DNA of 64,000 nucleotides from Thalia democratica (lineage: Eukaryota). Made by a program: the position numbers. The stretch lies in assembly GCA_965202585.1 (NCBI GenBank), contig OZ241834.1:9982001-10046000 (forward strand). The letters are read 5' to 3'. Positions 30,001-51,000 of the stretch are shown one piece after another (the stretch's first letter is position 1; each line of letters begins with the position of its first letter).

Positions 30001-33000
30001 TACAAAAATTTTGTGTTTATTTTGCATTTTAAAACTGCTTTAAATCAAAAATATAAATCAAAAGTAAAATTTTTAGCAAACTCTTCAAAGCCACATTTCT
30101 AAAATTTTTATTTGTACTGTTCAAATTAATTAAAACATATAGTTTAAACAGAATTCATTACGTTACATCTCAAATAATTGTAATTTAAATAGTAACTCTA
30201 GTGTTTATAACTTAATATTTTAATCAATTTAAGTTTTCATTTTTTCGGTAAAAGGTTAGCTGAGTATTTTTAATTTAAATTAAAAAGTAAATACATTACA
30301 TTTTAAGTATACATATTGATACTATGTAATTCTAGAAAAAAGTTGTAGAAAGACTCACTTAAAATGAAAAGATATAAATCAATAGTGAAGAAAATCTTTT
30401 TGAAACTTAAAGTAAACATAACTTTGATGTCTAAACAATTTTTAGTTTTTAGGATTTTTAGTGTGTTTTTTTTAAGTATATTAATTTTAAACTAAAAAAA
30501 TTAATTATGCATTTAAATTGTAAAATGATCAGGTCTTGCAGCAACTAATTATTACTTATAAGTTTTAATTGCGTTTTTAACTTACTAATATAAATCATCA
30601 TATTACACAGCAAAAAAAATCAGCTTTTTAGAATTATATAAAAATAAAATACTTGATATTTAGATAAGATCAATTTTTTACTTTGTGTAACTATTCTGTT
30701 AAATTAACTTTGTTTTAAAAACTTTGTTAAATAAGTGAATATTATATACAAAGTAAAATATTAGTAGTTATCATAGTTGCCATAAATTGGATGTTTTTAA
30801 TTCCAGATCAGGGTTGCACGAGTACTATTATTGACATGCAAACTGAACACAGGACTCTATATGTTAAAAATTGTGTAGATTTTGAAACTATGAAACTAAA
30901 TGTATAAACAGGATTTTCTTACCTAAAAATCTATAAGATTATTGACTATATAAAAAGTATAGTTATCAAATCGTAGTTTCAAAATAAACTCTTTTAATTC
31001 AGCAATTTAATCATCTAAATGAATTCACCACTGATCTTACGTTTTCTACGCAATTAAAAACCATATTAGGATCATTATAAACAAAATTAATCAGTTTGTA
31101 TCCTCCGAAAGCCAACACTCCGAGTAGAACTCCTCCTAAAACCATGCCTTCGCGCTGCGCTTTCAACAAAAACTTGTCTGTTTCCATCAGTTCCTTGAGA
31201 ATTGCGCCTTTCTTGTTTTTGTGTGGAAACGGCGTGTCTGGGACTGGCACCCCTAAAAACTCGCACAGTGGCTTCCAACCTTTTTTGAAGTCCACAATGT
31301 GAAGTTTGTCTTTTGGAGCTTTCTGTGTATGATTATGTTGAGTGCTTTTTTTATAGGTTTTGGAAAAGTAAAAAGCTTTGTTTAACTTAATAATAAACAT
31401 TCCTTATTACATCATGTGTTTATTATAAGATTCTACTTTTTATAAGAAATTGAAACACAGAAAAAAAAAACTAATACATATAAGTTAAGGACGTAAAGCG
31501 GTCTACTAATTACTTAAAAAATTATTATATCTTTAATATTTAACATTTTGAAAGGTAAATTAAGGTGATTTTTTTCTAGTATTTCACTACAACCAACTAA
31601 AACAAATTAGAGCCGAATGACAGTGTAAGTTTATATTACAAAACTTCAAAAGTTCTAGGATGAGACTGAAATAAGTTTCAACTTTTATAAAAGCCTACTA
31701 ATATAATTTATTTAAAACTTTCATGTTTTTATTAAAAATATTAATAGTTAATTAAAACAACTATATAGTAAGAAACCATCCTTTTATTTTAACCTACTTT
31801 AAAGGATTCCTTTTATACGCAATAAATAAGAACAAATAACAGTATACAATGACAAACAAACCTCAAGAACATAAAATTAAAAATTGTTGCATAAAACTAC
31901 AATAAGTTATAACTTTTATAAAGCCTCTCTATTATGATTTATTTAAAATTGTTCTTTTTTTTAAACCTTAGTTTTTAATAAAACAACCATGTAATGGGAA
32001 ACAACAACTTTTAATCTACACTTTGTAAACGATGCCTTAATTATTTATAAGTAAGAACAAATAACAGTATACAATGACAAACAAACCTCAAGAACATAGG
32101 CATTGTGTTTTCTGTATGACTGTCTACATAAAAGTTCACTGTACTTACAACCACCGAACCAATGCTGTGTGAAATTTATTCCAAAACAAATCTTTCCTTA
32201 TAATATGTAAATAATAGTTTAATAAACTTAATTGAGCCTTTTAACTAAAAGAAACTATCTACAAATCACATGTCTTGTTTAAACAAAAGTATTTCGTAAA
32301 GTCAAACGATAAAAGCAGTAAAAGACAAAAATAATTTATCCTGCGCTTCTTTTTAAAAGTAGTACTAGTTTTTAAAGGTATGAAGTAAAAAAAAGATTTA
32401 TGTTAAAAAAACAGCTTATGTTCAGTTTGACATAAAAAATTTATGGAGTGTAAAACATGAATGAATAGTATTTATTAAATTTTGTACCATTTACTTACTT
32501 GCTTTATCTAAGTTAATTGCCTTAAATAAAATATTTAAAAAAAACCTATTTTAAGACCATAACGATTCATGAGCCACAGTCTTGGTGAGATCATCATTAT
32601 AAGTGTAACTAAAGGATGGGTTTGAACTTGAAGCTGTTTGTCAAAACTTTTAAACCATTCATCTTCAGTAGCACGTTGTCCAAATATTATCTAAACAGTT
32701 TTTGTACTAATTTAGAAAATCAAATTCTACATATTTTCATTGAAAAGTGTGTTTAAAAGTATATTTCAAATAACTTAAGGGTATATTTAAACTTTTTGTA
32801 AACAAAAAAATTGTGTGCGTAGTAATACATAAAAAACAAATATTTCCAGGGAGATATATCGCTTATCTGTAGAAAAAGTAATTTACGCAAAAAAATATAT
32901 ATAACTGTAACAAAATATGCATTTTGTTGTATTTTAAATGACCGCAAAGGGACGTTAGACGATTTTATATCAAATTACACAACAAAACTTTAAAAATGTT

Positions 33001-48000: not shown

Positions 48001-51000
48001 TTGGAAGCCACTGTGCGAGTTTTTAGGGGTGCCAGTCCCAGACACGCCGTTTCCACACAAAAACAAGAAAGGCGCAATTCTCAAGGAACTGATGGAAACA
48101 GACAAGTTTTTGTTGAAAGCGCAGCGCGAAGGCATGGTTTTAGGAGGAGTTCTACTCGGAGTGTTGGCTTTTGGAGGGTACAAACTGATTAATTTTGTTT
48201 ATAATGATCCTGATGTGGTTTTTAATTGCGTAGACAATGTAAAATCAGTATTGAATTCATTTAGCTAATTAAATTGCTGAATTAACATAATATTTTTTAT
48301 CTAAAATATTAATTAATAACTAAATTTTTATTATGTATTTAATGCTTTTTATATAAATAAACATTTAGTTTTAAATTATAAATAAAAAAATTATAAAACT
48401 TTTATAAATAATACTTATTTAAGTTTAAAATTGCTATTGTTTACAAAATTTACAGTATAAGTTTATTTTTTAAAACCAAATTTATCATAAAATTAAAAAA
48501 ATTAATAACAAAATTAGTCTTTCTCGTAACTACCTGTTTTCAATAGGTGCATTTTTTCAATTACACTGTATTGATAAAATATATCATTTGTTGTTAAAAA
48601 TAGTTCCTTGTTCTTATTACAAAAACTCTAAATAGGTTCAAATGTTAAATGCACAGCCTAACAAATTACATGTTTTAATATTTACCGAATGGATCAGAAA
48701 CTTTTTTTTAATTACTTATGATTTTTTTTTTAGCGCAAAAGCTACTAACTTGTAAGAATACTAATCGGTGAAAACATATTTATTTATTAAATATTTAACC
48801 GTTTTAATACAAAAAAAAAATACTAACTTATAGCATTTTAGTCGTATTATCTTCAATAACTAATGAACTACCCAACAATTTTCTCAAATCAAAAACCGGA
48901 TCAATGCATAAAAAATCGGTTACATCCGGATCCGGTAATTCATTAGTTTTTACACATAAAAGTTAATATTACATTTGATTTGAAAACTTAAAAGTACTTA
49001 TTAAGAAGCCTCATGTCCGTAATGTCATTTTTGTAACAAAAACAATTGTTTAAAATAAAACTTAGCTTATACCTATTAAAAACTTACACTTCACTTGACT
49101 TTTAGTAAATATTTGCGCTCTTTAAATGTTTTTTCATAAAAACCTTGCTTGTAAATTCTAGTATAATATTAAAAATCATATTAACGGTGACTCACGAATG
49201 ACTTTTTCCCTATAAACCTAACAAATCCAGCCACATTGTAGTGAAACCGGCCCTTTTTACATACAAAATGCTGCCAACCACTGGTTTTATGCTTAAAACA
49301 AATACTTACTGAAGTACATTTGATAAAGTTAGTTCTATATCTATAAAAATCAAATAGAATATAGAAAACAGTACACAAATAAGTAAATATATATATTTTT
49401 TTTTTCTACTAGGTTAGATTTTATATTACTTTTCAGTAAAATTCATAAAAAGTTCAACATAGTTTAAAAAAATAACTGGAGTTGTGTCTATGATTATTAG
49501 AAGCATAAGTTAAACCACCAAAGCAACTTAACTCAAAGCTTTTCAAGTTAGAATTTATCTTAATTTTAAACGGTTTTTATTAACATTTATGTATCTTAAT
49601 TTAAAAAGTAGTTGTTATTTTTCACCTGAAGCTATATTTTTCTCTTATAATTGTTAATTTGTGATTAGCTTCTGAGTTACTTTCGAATGACAGAACAGAA
49701 ATGTCAAGGTACAATGTTAGTAAGTATAGAAATTTTTAATCATAACAATAAGTCACTAATAATTGAATTAATACTGACTATTTTGATTCTGGAGAGCATT
49801 TAAAACTGTAATTTACAAAATAAAGAACGTTAGTTTTAACACAACATACCCAGTGCTAAAATTTTATAATTATTTAAAGCTTTTAAAATATTTTAAATAA
49901 TCTCTTGAAATTTTCTAAAAAATTTTTGATTAATAAAATTTTATTATTAACGGTGTTATAAAATTAGACTTAAGTAAAGAACTATATGTAAGAGAATAAA
50001 CATGGTGACCAGACATCTTATAAATTTAAAAGACTTTATAAGTAATAAAACTAACTTATTTTATATTAAACATAACGTCTTATTTTATTTTTTGTTTTAT
50101 TTATGTATTTGAGATAGAAAAAAAAGGTATTAAACGAGCTTTGTAAAAACTAGTAACTGTTTAATATTAGAAACTTAATCTATACAACTATTGATTACAT
50201 ATTACAACTTTTAAAATACTTATACTGTTGTTTTATTTCAGGTAATATTGCAAATATGTTACTTATTTTTAGCTGGTTTTACGGAGAAACATGCTTAACA
50301 ACTATTTTTAATTTATATCTATTTTTCAATATTTTTTTTAACATGTAACATTAAAATAGCTTTGTTAATACTTGCTCAAATTAAAATCACTTTACGTTTT
50401 TTTATAACTGTTCAACTTTTGCAAAGACGTACACCTTCAACTTTTCATACTTTAAAATTCTCTTATATGCTGAATTAGAATATAAACGTTTTTTTACATT
50501 AAAAGTACTTTACTTTAAATTTTTCAAAATATAAAGTCAATCGTTTGCTGAAAAAGATCCAAGCGAAACAAGTTCACTGGAATATATAATAAAAACAAAT
50601 TTAAACAGTACTCTTTCTTTGTTAAATTAACACATTTTTCTGTGTGTTTACAAGTTAACACACTTTAACGGAGCTATGAAAATTGAATAAATAATAATTC
50701 CAAACTACTATTTCTTCACATTTTATAGCTCCGTTGTAGAAAAATATTGTAGTTTAATAGAGAAAGAGTTCAGTTTGTTATTATTAAGTATTATTTATTA
50801 AAATTAGCATAGCTTTAATTGAACAAACTGTTTGTTCAATATATTAAATTAATAACTAGTCATATTTTAGATAATTTAAAGTCATACGATTATTTTTAAT
50901 GGGTGGTCGTCAGAATGGCACAGCGACACTTTAGCACGGGTCGTCAATTCAGCACGGTGGTCATTTTAGCACGGAGGGTCACTTTTGAACTGCATTACTT

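What the first reader, a model, noticed from the sequence alone, without database searches (positions are those of the whole stretch)
30995..48285. About 17-kb inverted duplication of a FABP + sulfotransferase two-gene cassette: possible lipid/sterol sulfation module
Seen: SULT-A <- FABP-A <- (about 2.7 kb between ATGs) -> FABP-B -> SULT-B. Intergenic DNA and introns are alignable across both arms and both copies of both genes are intact. Established: FABP1/6/10-type proteins carry fatty acids and bile acids, and PAPS-dependent sulfotransferases sulfate small hydrophobic acceptors. Inference: a carrier plus a membrane-anchored sulfotransferase kept together through duplication may be a small animal metabolic cluster (for example sulfation of sterols, alkanols or bile-alcohol-like compounds in gut tissue). 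Co-duplication may also just reflect adjacency.
Basis: partly seen in the sequence, partly recalled or inferred. Interest (0 to 1): 0.68.

Follow-up and report, generated by a model that had tools for sequence, protein, structure and literature searches.

The report
Inverted duplicate of FABP-sulfotransferase gene pair
A real 17-kb mirror-image duplication carries two intact copies of a bile-acid-type lipid carrier gene next to a membrane-tethered sulfotransferase gene, probably in a sea-squirt relative; whether the two proteins work together is plausible but unproven.

Summary
Arm A (30950-39357) and arm B (42080-48331) are inverted copies around a unique 2.7-kb spacer. Each arm carries a 3-exon FABP gene (128 codons) and a 4-exon Sulfotransfer_4 gene (272 codons). 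All exon lengths and all GT-AG sites are kept in both arms.

The FABP is of the FABP6/FABP1/L-BABP type. The enzyme belongs to the family of Schistosoma SULT-OR, Cpz8 and SgdX2, and has a C-terminal hydrophobic helix.

Its nearest named relatives are all tunicate proteins, from a strongly expanded family.

The arms are old: non-coding DNA is 70-80% identical and each arm has its own insertions. Exons are 93-100% identical, and perfect tracts of up to 237 nt point to arm-to-arm gene conversion. This argues against an assembly artefact.

The "metabolic module" idea is reasonable, because tunicates make alkyl sulfates and sulfated sterols. It remains untested here: no eukaryotic genome collection was available for synteny, there were no expression data, and the complex predictor never accepted the job.

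Verdict: an ordinary segmental duplication of two adjacent genes, with an open functional hypothesis.

The parts
30950..39357 (.). Arm A of the inverted duplication (8,408 nt), carrying SULT-A and FABP-A on the minus strand
   Evidence: Self-BLAST blocks and inverted pairs; global arm alignment
42080..48331 (.). Arm B of the inverted duplication (6,252 nt), carrying FABP-B and SULT-B on the plus strand
39358..42079 (.). Unique central spacer (2,722 nt) holding the two non-homologous FABP 5' flanks
   Evidence: No arm-to-arm homology with sensitive BLAST or the repeat finder. The alignment upstream of the ATGs is 41% identical, i.e. random. None of 5 spacer ORFs matched Pfam.
38202..39351 (-). 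FABP-A gene. Exons 39351-39279, 38918-38746 and 38342-38202 (stop included); 128 codons.
   Evidence: Pfam PF14651 on each exon; GT-AG sites; exon junctions match database protein P0009
42086..43254 (+). FABP-B gene. Exons 42086-42158, 42509-42681 and 43114-43254 (stop included). It encodes the same protein as FABP-A.
   Evidence: 0 amino-acid differences in 127 whole codons and 5 synonymous differences.
31011..35934 (-). SULT-A gene. Exons 35934-35683, 32690-32546, 32196-32087 and 31322-31011 (stop included); 272 codons.
   Evidence: Pfam PF17784: exon 1 scores 82 bits and exon 4 57.9 bits, against a cut-off of 22.8; splice sites; junctions match P0001
45278..48268 (+). SULT-B gene. Exons 45278-45529, 46590-46734, 47066-47175 and 47957-48268 (stop included); 272 codons.
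   Evidence: Pfam PF17784: exon 1 scores 83.4 bits and exon 4 58 bits. It differs from SULT-A at 12 of 271 whole codons plus one split codon.
45296..45322 (+). GFPKTGTKT loop of SULT-B, the 5'-phosphosulfate-binding P-loop. The same residues lie at 35890-35916 (minus strand) in SULT-A.
   Evidence: Read from translations. K10, G12 and T13 are invariant or nearly invariant in 45 relatives. The loop aligns with the same loop of SmSULT, Cpz8 and SgdX2.
48134..48190 (+). Predicted C-terminal membrane helix MVLGGVLLGVLAFGGYKLI of SULT-B. The same residues lie at 31089-31145 (minus strand) in SULT-A.
   Evidence: Kyte-Doolittle 19-residue mean of 1.86. The hydrophobic peak lies in the last 30% of the protein in 43 of 45 relatives and reaches 1.6 or more there in 24 of 45. 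It is a long helix in the model.
47164..47388 (+). 225-nt tract perfectly identical between the arms (arm A 31874-32098). 213 nt of it are in SULT intron 3. A likely recent gene-conversion tract.
   Evidence: identity falls to 41-60% just beyond it; no special RNA fold, z = -0.29
32810..35448 (.). Arm-A-only DNA in SULT-A intron 1, about 1.9 kb extra. It has 196-nt direct repeats at 33010-33203 and 34458-34653 built of a 41-nt tandem unit.
   Evidence: no Pfam match in its ORFs
45848..46415 (.). Arm-B-only foldback element in SULT-B intron 1, with 278-nt arms that are 95% complementary and hammerhead-like motifs

Best explanation
This is a genuine and fairly old inverted segmental duplication: a palindrome-like structure with a unique 2.7-kb spacer. 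It copied two neighbouring genes in a genome that is most likely a tunicate's.

Gene content. Each arm holds, in the same orientation and 2.0 kb apart, two genes. One is a cytosolic lipid-binding protein of the FABP6/FABP1/L-BABP branch. The other is a 272-residue enzyme of the Sulfotransfer_4 family. The enzyme's catalytic domain starts at residue 1 with the PAPS-binding loop. The protein ends in a single hydrophobic helix followed by about 25 residues. This implies a cytosol-facing, tail-anchored-like enzyme rather than a lumenal Golgi one.

Evolution. One duplication event copied both genes. Since then all four copies have been kept by purifying selection, and their exons have been repeatedly homogenised by arm-to-arm gene conversion. 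Meanwhile introns and intergenic DNA diverged, each arm took up its own insertions, and the FABP 5' flanks became unrelated. The two identical FABP proteins are therefore probably expressed under different control.

Likely function (inferred). The enzyme transfers sulfate from PAPS to the hydroxyl group of a small hydrophobic alcohol, either an alkanol or a hydroxysterol, at a membrane surface. The FABP carries anionic amphiphiles in the same compartment, more plausibly the sulfate-ester product than the neutral alcohol.

Odds. I put about 0.2-0.25 on the linkage itself being selected, that is, on a true carrier-enzyme unit. Otherwise the pair was co-duplicated simply because the genes were adjacent.

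Shown versus inferred. Shown: the structure, the gene models, the family and fold assignments, the selection signal and the conversion tracts. Inferred: membrane topology, substrate class, host taxon and any coupling between the two proteins.
For: Structure and intactness.

Divergence between the arms:
- Exons are 93.1-100% identical.
- Introns are 70-80% identical, the intergenic DNA is 78%, and SULT intron 1 is 59.6% with 1,943 nt present only in arm A.

Selection:
- FABP: 0 non-synonymous and 5 synonymous differences in 127 codons.
- SULT: dN 0.022, dS 0.103, ratio 0.21.

Gene conversion:
- Synonymous sites differ far less than introns (Fisher p = 1.7e-5 for FABP, 5e-7 for SULT).
- There are 10 perfect runs of 40 nt or more. 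These include a 237-nt run over SULT exon 4 and a 225-nt run of which 213 nt are intronic.

Independent check of the gene models: database proteins P0001 (272 aa; 10 of 271 residues differ from copy B) and P0009 (6 of 127 differ) have exactly the predicted exon junctions.

Family assignments:
- Pfam.
- PDB sequence hits to Cpz8 (9kf1, 4e-26), SgdX2 (1.5e-19) and Schistosoma SULT-OR (1e-13 to 3e-15).
- SULT model pLDDT 94.4, with Foldseek TM 0.64/0.68 to SULT-OR.
- FABP model pLDDT 89.3, with TM 0.77-0.81 (query) and 0.83-0.93 (target) to bile-acid-binding FABPs.

C-terminal helix.

Taxon. Of the 120 rows listed, 71 name an organism: 70 are tunicates (Ciona intestinalis 30, Clavelina 21, Styela 11, Phallusia 4, C. 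savignyi 4) and 1 is Hydra.

Chemistry in tunicates:
- Alkyl sulfates occur in ascidian hepatopancreas (PMC6780655 and PMC13390645, passages).
- The egg chemoattractant SAAF is 3,4,7,26-tetrahydroxycholestane-3,26-disulfate (PMC9265791, passages).
Against: - Nothing here shows that the two proteins share a pathway.
- The enzyme family is very large in tunicates: 28 different LOC identifiers for Ciona intestinalis alone, some possibly the same locus under two annotation releases. A neighbour of some 'interesting' family is therefore not very surprising after the fact.
- The genes are 2 kb apart with separate upstream conserved blocks, so they do not look like one transcription unit.
- The membrane helix is only moderately hydrophobic. 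It scores 1.86, and 21 of 45 relatives score below 1.6.
- Topology, substrate and host taxon are all inferred.
- The low synonymous divergence could partly reflect selection on codons rather than gene conversion.
- Full-length analyses used the stand-ins P0001 and P0009 (95% and 93% identical), not the window's own joined proteins.
Confidence: 0.75

Rival explanations
1. Selected two-gene metabolic unit. The FABP and the sulfotransferase act in one pathway, with the carrier delivering the lipid alcohol or removing the sulfate ester. In this reading the linkage is kept by selection and the unit was duplicated as a whole to raise output.
For: - Both genes were copied together and all four copies are intact and constrained.
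- Both proteins are predicted to act in the cytosol.
- The nearest structural relatives of the FABP hold bile acids, which are anionic steroid amphiphiles.
- Tunicates make alkyl sulfates and a steroid disulfate.
- My searches found no assigned sulfotransferase for these compounds.
- A rough chance estimate for adjacency is about 0.01: 3 FABP genes in Ciona savignyi (PMC3796463) x 2 neighbours x about 28 SULT loci out of roughly 15,000 genes. The gene number is recalled, and the estimate is post hoc.
Against: - A single duplication event copies neighbours whether or not they cooperate.
- I have no synteny, expression or interaction data.
- The two FABP copies have unrelated 5' flanks, while the SULT copies keep an 80-88% identical block of about 200 nt upstream. 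This does not look like shared regulation.
Confidence: 0.2
2. Assembly artefact. In this reading the two arms are the two haplotypes of one locus, or a fold-back chimeric read, wrongly joined head to head.
For: Inverted joins are a known failure of long-read assembly (recalled). Some tracts are perfectly identical, up to 237 nt. No reads were available to check.
Against: - Non-coding identity is only 70-80%.
- Arm A has about 1.9 kb in SULT intron 1 that arm B lacks, and arm B has a 568-nt foldback that arm A lacks.
- The SULT proteins differ at 13 of 272 positions.
- The arms are separated by 2.7 kb of unique DNA.
- The outer flanks are not homologous, whereas haplotypes would stay collinear well beyond 8 kb.
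Confidence: 0.04

Closest known systems
Schistosoma sulfotransferase SULT-OR (SmSULT, PDB 4MUA/4MUB), the oxamniquine-activating enzyme
   Same: - It is the closest solved animal member of Pfam Sulfotransfer_4 found here.
- It has the same fold (TM 0.64/0.68) and the same N-terminal PAPS loop.
- The Asp in its 'TDLP' stretch aligns with D66 of P0001. The paper describes Asp91 as hydrogen-bonded to the acceptor hydroxyl (PMC4618941, passage). The numbering offset between the PDB chain and the paper was not verified.
- It sulfates the hydroxyl of a small hydrophobic molecule.
   Different: Sequence identity is only 22-24%. I noticed no C-terminal hydrophobic helix in the crystallised chains, but this was not systematically checked. 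In the passages I read, only its drug substrate is described.
Bacterial Sulfotransfer_4 enzymes Cpz8 (caprazamycin pathway, PDB 9KF1/9KF2) and SgdX2 (PDB 8Y9P)
   Same: These are the best sequence matches among solved structures (E 4e-26 and 1.5e-19). They share the fold and are small-molecule O-sulfotransferases, going by their entry titles.
   Different: They are soluble bacterial enzymes of antibiotic pathways, 27-30% identical, with no membrane helix.
Vertebrate FABP6 (ileal bile-acid-binding protein), FABP1 and liver BABP (FABP10)
   Same: These are the best sequence matches (E 2.5e-24) and structural matches (target TM up to 0.93). The ten-strand barrel with a helix-turn-helix lid is predicted. 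Pfam PF14651 matches.
   Different: Identity is 30-37%. The gene has three exons rather than the canonical four; one of three Ciona savignyi FABP genes also has three (PMC3796463 Table 2). The ligand is unknown.
Palindromic segmental duplications with arm-to-arm gene conversion, as on primate sex chromosomes (recalled, not checked in a paper here)
   Same: Inverted arms around a unique spacer, with genes in both arms and patchy perfect-identity tracts in an otherwise diverged background.
   Different: This one is much smaller, with 6-8 kb arms. Overall the arms are only about 80% identical, so conversion is local rather than arm-wide.
Expanded tunicate Sulfotransfer_4 family (uncharacterised LOC proteins of Ciona, Clavelina, Styela and Phallusia)
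   Same: They are 41-52% identical over the full length and about the same size. They share the C-terminal hydrophobic peak.
   Different: The window's enzyme falls in a clade of 16 rows made only of unnamed sequences (support 89/92). The named species form their own species-specific clades.

Membership tests
Pfam Sulfotransfer_4 (PF17784) | Profile match above the curated cut-off | tested here: met
   Exon 1 scores 82 and 83.4 bits, and exon 4 scores 57.9 and 58 bits, against a cut-off of 22.8. Exon 2 is weak (14-15 bits) and exon 3 gives no match on its own. The exons were searched singly, never joined.
Pfam Sulfotransfer_4 (PF17784) | PAPS-binding P-loop (xKTGT) and an acceptor-side Asp as in SmSULT | tested here: met
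   GFPKTGTKT and DAIMDVPGC are present in both copies. K10, G12, T13 and D66 are invariant or at least 90% conserved in 45 relatives. They align with the same residues of SmSULT.
Pfam Sulfotransfer_4 (PF17784) | Fold of the solved members | tested here: met
   The model of stand-in P0001 has pLDDT 94.4. The 19 Foldseek hits with E <= 0.001 are all SULT-OR, SgdX2 or Cpz8.
Pfam Sulfotransfer_4 (PF17784) | PAPS-dependent sulfate transfer | not testable with these tools
   Needs an enzyme assay.
Intracellular lipid-binding proteins, FABP1/6/10 branch (PF14651) | Profile match | tested here: met
   Exon 2 scores 44.9 and 45.9 bits against a cut-off of 25.4. Exons 1 and 3 score about 20 bits each, below the cut-off when searched alone.
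Intracellular lipid-binding proteins, FABP1/6/10 branch (PF14651) | Closer to FABP1/6/10 than to the other FABPs | tested here: met
   The first 23 PDB rows are ileal or liver FABP/BABP (E <= 1e-16); other FABPs start at 4e-9. Atlas clusters are 'liver-like', 'FABP6' and 'gastrotropin'. No tree with labelled references was built.
Intracellular lipid-binding proteins, FABP1/6/10 branch (PF14651) | Ten-strand beta barrel with a two-helix lid | tested here: met
   The model of stand-in P0009 has pLDDT 89.3, with 10 strands plus helices 35-41 and 46-53. Target TM is up to 0.93.
Intracellular lipid-binding proteins, FABP1/6/10 branch (PF14651) | Binds bile salts or fatty acids | not testable with these tools
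   Needs a binding assay.
Tail-anchored-type membrane protein | No N-terminal signal or anchor; a single hydrophobic helix close to the C-terminus | tested here: inconclusive
   The N-terminus is the P-loop itself (N-terminal hydropathy 0.39). The C-terminal peak scores 1.86 and is followed by 25 residues. The peak is only moderately hydrophobic, and 21 of 45 relatives fall below 1.6. No dedicated predictor was available.
Metabolic gene cluster (animal) | Adjacent non-homologous genes | tested here: met
   FABP and SULT lie 2.0 kb apart in the same orientation in both arms.
Metabolic gene cluster (animal) | The genes act in one pathway, are co-expressed, and the linkage is conserved in relatives | not testable with these tools
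There were no expression data.
Palindrome with arm-to-arm gene conversion | Inverted arms with tracts of identity far above the background | tested here: met
   Ten perfect runs of 40-237 nt in a 70-80% identical background; one is 213 nt intronic. Synonymous sites versus introns: p <= 1.7e-5.

The most novel reading that the evidence does not exclude
The pair may be a dedicated unit for making and chaperoning sulfated lipids in a tunicate. The tail-anchored Sulfotransfer_4 enzyme would sulfate medium-chain alkanols or polyhydroxysterols, the latter being precursors of SAAF-type sperm attractants. The bile-acid-type FABP would carry the detergent-like sulfate ester away. If so, this would give the first gene candidates for tunicate alkyl-sulfate and steroid-sulfate synthesis, and a rare example of a linked metabolic gene pair in an animal.
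Probability: 0.15. Interest if true: 0.65.

Novelty: new member of a known kind. Interest (0 to 1): 0.3.

Why it matters
Tunicates hold notable amounts of alkyl sulfates and use a steroid disulfate as an egg-to-sperm signal. In the literature I could search, no sulfotransferase is assigned to either. A 2026 paper on tunicate alkyl sulfatases does not contain the word sulfotransferase.

The strongly expanded, membrane-tethered Sulfotransfer_4 family seen here is an obvious candidate source of those enzymes. A conserved FABP neighbour would point to which paralogue handles lipids.

Without that link, the locus is just a clean small example of an inverted duplication evolving by local gene conversion.

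Tried and rejected
- Complex prediction (SULT catalytic domain 1-224 with FABP 19-146, both as alignments). The queue was full each time, and the tool was finally declared unavailable. Nothing was folded, so there is no result either way.
- The listing of cluster members on the ten best FABP relatives, to get species and locus names as a proxy for synteny.
- Synteny in related genomes. This stayed unchecked.
- Hidden homology or a palindrome inside the spacer: none found.
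- Further genes inside the region: 35 non-exon ORFs gave no credible Pfam family. The one hit was a sub-threshold, low-complexity match.
- Extra FABP or SULT copies elsewhere in the window: none found by tblastn.
- Rfam at gathering scores over the whole window: 0 matches.
- The 225-nt perfect intronic tract as a structured RNA: z = -0.29, so rejected.
- Operon or single transcription unit: rejected as unlikely, because the genes are 2 kb apart.
- Literature searches:
  - 'Sulfotransfer_4' gave 3 papers, none on tunicates.
  - sulfotransferase + SAAF + Ciona gave 0.
  - FABP + sulfotransferase + ascidian gave 1 irrelevant paper.
  - tunicate + sulfotransferase + gene family expansion gave 4 papers, 3 of them listed, none on this family.
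  - A search for FABP binding of sulfated bile salts found nothing usable.
- Joined spliced proteins were never built or searched. Exons were searched one by one, and the database proteins P0001 and P0009 served as full-length stand-ins.

Full report
**The observation**

The window has no N and is very AT-rich, at 21-41% G+C in 2-kb bins. Self-comparison shows four long inverted blocks that pair 30950-39357 with 48331-42080. Their identity is 76.7-87.4%, with sub-blocks up to 96-97%. The whole structure is 17,382 nt: arm A is 8,408 nt, the unique spacer (39358-42079) is 2,722 nt, and arm B is 6,252 nt.

**Gene models**

Stop-to-stop ORFs and three-frame reading gave one 3-exon FABP gene and one 4-exon sulfotransferase gene per arm. 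A global alignment of the arms shows that all seven exons have the same length in both arms. All five introns per arm keep GT...AG.
- FABP-A (minus strand): 39351-39279, 38918-38746, 38342-38202.
- FABP-B (plus strand): 42086-42158, 42509-42681, 43114-43254.
- SULT-A (minus strand): 35934-35683, 32690-32546, 32196-32087, 31322-31011.
- SULT-B (plus strand): 45278-45529, 46590-46734, 47066-47175, 47957-48268.

Two database proteins found with single exons serve as independent checks. P0001 has 272 residues and sits on a 1,189-nt contig. P0009 has 146 residues. Both have exactly the predicted junctions. P0001 differs from SULT-B at 10 of 271 compared residues and from SULT-A at 14 of 271. P0009 differs from both FABP copies at 6 of 127. 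They are either alleles, further paralogues or close-species orthologues. I used them as full-length stand-ins for folding and for PDB searches.

**What the genes are: the FABP**
- The FABP exons match Pfam PF14651. Exon 2 scores 45-46 bits against a cut-off of 25.4; exons 1 and 3 score about 20 bits each.
- P0009's first 23 PDB sequence matches are all ileal or liver FABP/bile-acid-binding proteins, with E from 2.5e-24 to 9.9e-17. Other FABPs begin at 4e-9.
- Its model has pLDDT 89.3 and ten strands plus a two-helix lid. It superposes best on zebrafish and chicken liver BABP, FABP6 and FABP1, many of them solved with cholate-type ligands.

**What the genes are: the sulfotransferase**
- The enzyme's exons match PF17784 Sulfotransfer_4. 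Exon 1 scores 82-83 bits and exon 4 scores 58 bits, against a cut-off of 22.8.
- The best solved relatives are Streptomyces Cpz8, SgdX2 and the Schistosoma oxamniquine-activating sulfotransferase.
- The model has pLDDT 94.4. Its only significant fold matches are these same proteins: 19 hits with E <= 0.001.
- The PAPS loop GFPKTGTKT opens the protein at residue 7.
- The Asp of DAIMDVP aligns with the Asp of SmSULT that contacts the acceptor hydroxyl (numbering offset unverified).
- A 19-residue hydrophobic peak (1.86) lies 25 residues from the C-terminus. It recurs at the same place in 43 of 45 relatives and reaches 1.6 or more in 24 of them.
- With no N-terminal signal, this suggests a cytosol-facing, tail-anchored-like enzyme. 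That topology is inferred, not shown.

**Whose genome**

Of the 120 rows listed for P0001 (out of 160 hits), 71 carry an organism name. Seventy are tunicates and one is Hydra; identities are 41-52%. Ciona intestinalis alone contributes 30 rows under 28 LOC identifiers, so the family is strongly expanded.

In a tree of 45 sequences, P0001 sits in a clade of 16 unnamed rows. The named ascidians form species-specific clades. The FABP's look-alike clusters are chordate. The window is therefore most likely from a tunicate lineage not among the named species. This is an inference.

**How the duplication has evolved**

Identity by segment:

| Segment | Identity between arms |
|---|---|
| Exons | 93.1-100% |
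| FABP introns 1, 2 | 79.9%, 70.0% |
| Intergenic DNA | 78.0% |
| SULT introns 2, 3 | 73.4%, 73.5% |
| SULT intron 1 | essentially unalignable in its middle |

In SULT intron 1, arm A has about 1.9 kb of extra DNA with 196-nt direct repeats. Arm B has a 568-nt foldback.

Homology begins 6 nt before the FABP start codons and ends about 60 nt after the SULT stop codons.

The two FABP proteins are identical, with 5 synonymous changes in 127 codons. The SULT proteins differ at 12 of 271 whole codons plus one split codon, with dN/dS of 0.21. All changes fall at variable positions, six of them in the tail after the hydrophobic helix.

Synonymous sites are much less diverged than introns (p = 1.7e-5 and 5e-7). 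There are ten perfect runs of 40 nt or more. One is a 225-nt run with 213 nt inside SULT intron 3, and identity drops to 41-60% immediately beyond it. That tract has no special fold.

The simplest reading is an old duplication whose exons are kept alike by purifying selection plus local arm-to-arm gene conversion.

**Artefact?**

Haplotypes joined by mistake should be collinear far beyond 8 kb and much more alike. Here the outer flanks and the spacer are unique, each arm has private insertions, and the proteins differ. I rate the artefact reading at about 0.04. Only reads can close the question.

**The module hypothesis**

In its favour:
- One event copied both genes, and all four copies are constrained.
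- Both proteins are predicted to be cytosolic.
- The FABP's nearest relatives carry anionic steroid amphiphiles.
- Ascidians contain alkyl sulfates, notably in the hepatopancreas (PMC6780655 and PMC13390645, passages read).
- Ascidian eggs release a cholestane disulfate as sperm attractant (PMC9265791, passages; abstracts of PMC8835908 and PMC10668965 in the listing).

None of my searches found a sulfotransferase assigned to these compounds.

Against it:
- Co-duplication follows from adjacency alone.
- The genes are 2 kb apart with separate conserved upstream blocks.
- The FABP copies have unrelated 5' flanks.
- With so many paralogues, some notable neighbour is expected.

The three tests that would decide the matter were all out of reach. 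These are synteny in other tunicates, co-expression and a physical-interaction prediction.

I therefore put about 0.2 on a selected carrier-enzyme unit. If the two proteins do cooperate, I think the FABP more likely carries the anionic sulfate ester than the neutral alcohol, because that is the ligand class of its relatives (inference).

**Verdict**

The structure is a genuine but ordinary inverted segmental duplication with local gene conversion. The functional coupling remains an attractive but untested idea.

Noticed in passing
window 45848-46415: A 568-nt foldback sits in SULT-B intron 1, with 278-nt arms that are 95% complementary. It is richer in G+C than its surroundings and is absent from arm A. 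Each arm carries a hammerhead-ribozyme-like motif. Rfam HH9 scores 35.4 bits at 46306-46372 (+) and 30.4 bits at 45891-45959 (-), both below the gathering score of 52. It resembles the hammerhead-bearing repeats of Penelope-like elements or retrozymes (recalled).
   Followed up: partly
window 33010-33203 and 34458-34653: Two 196-nt direct repeats, 94% identical and built from a 41-nt tandem unit, bracket about 1.25 kb inside the arm-A-only DNA of SULT-A intron 1. This is probably a small non-autonomous mobile element. No protein family was found in it.
   Followed up: partly
window 31648-31873 and 31879-32098: A unit of about 225 nt is tandemly repeated in arm A at 76% identity. It covers the last 12 nt of SULT exon 3 plus the start of intron 3. 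The exon-proximal copy is exactly the tract that is 100% identical between the arms.
   Followed up: partly
window 58413-63545: A Ty3/gypsy-type LTR retroelement lies on the minus strand. It has integrase, RNase H and reverse-transcriptase ORFs, with reading frames interrupted. It is flanked by 112-nt repeats that are 97% identical (58413-58524 and 63434-63545). It sits between exons of a protein kinase gene.
   Followed up: no
window 57047-57968 and 63608-63796, minus strand: Exons of a Ser/Thr kinase whose best solved relative is NEK1 (E 2e-30 for the 212-residue exon).
   Followed up: partly
window 4193-4552, plus strand: An open frame with a sub-threshold match to the CotH kinase family (22.8 bits against a cut-off of 23.8).
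   Followed up: no
window 2-1359 vs 25358-27090; 3218-3380 vs 52148-52311 and 50523-50669: Dispersed repeats. One is a direct repeat of about 1.3 kb, 79-84% identical and 25 kb apart, with an internal tandem copy at 25595-26550. The other is an element of about 160 nt present three times, one copy inverted, at 79-89% identity.
   Followed up: no
window 43828-43924 (arm A about 37300-37400): A block of about 90 nt with roughly 92% identity stands out inside the otherwise 72-82% identical FABP-SULT intergenic DNA. The 200 nt upstream of the SULT start codons are also 80-88% identical. These are possible regulatory elements.
   Followed up: no
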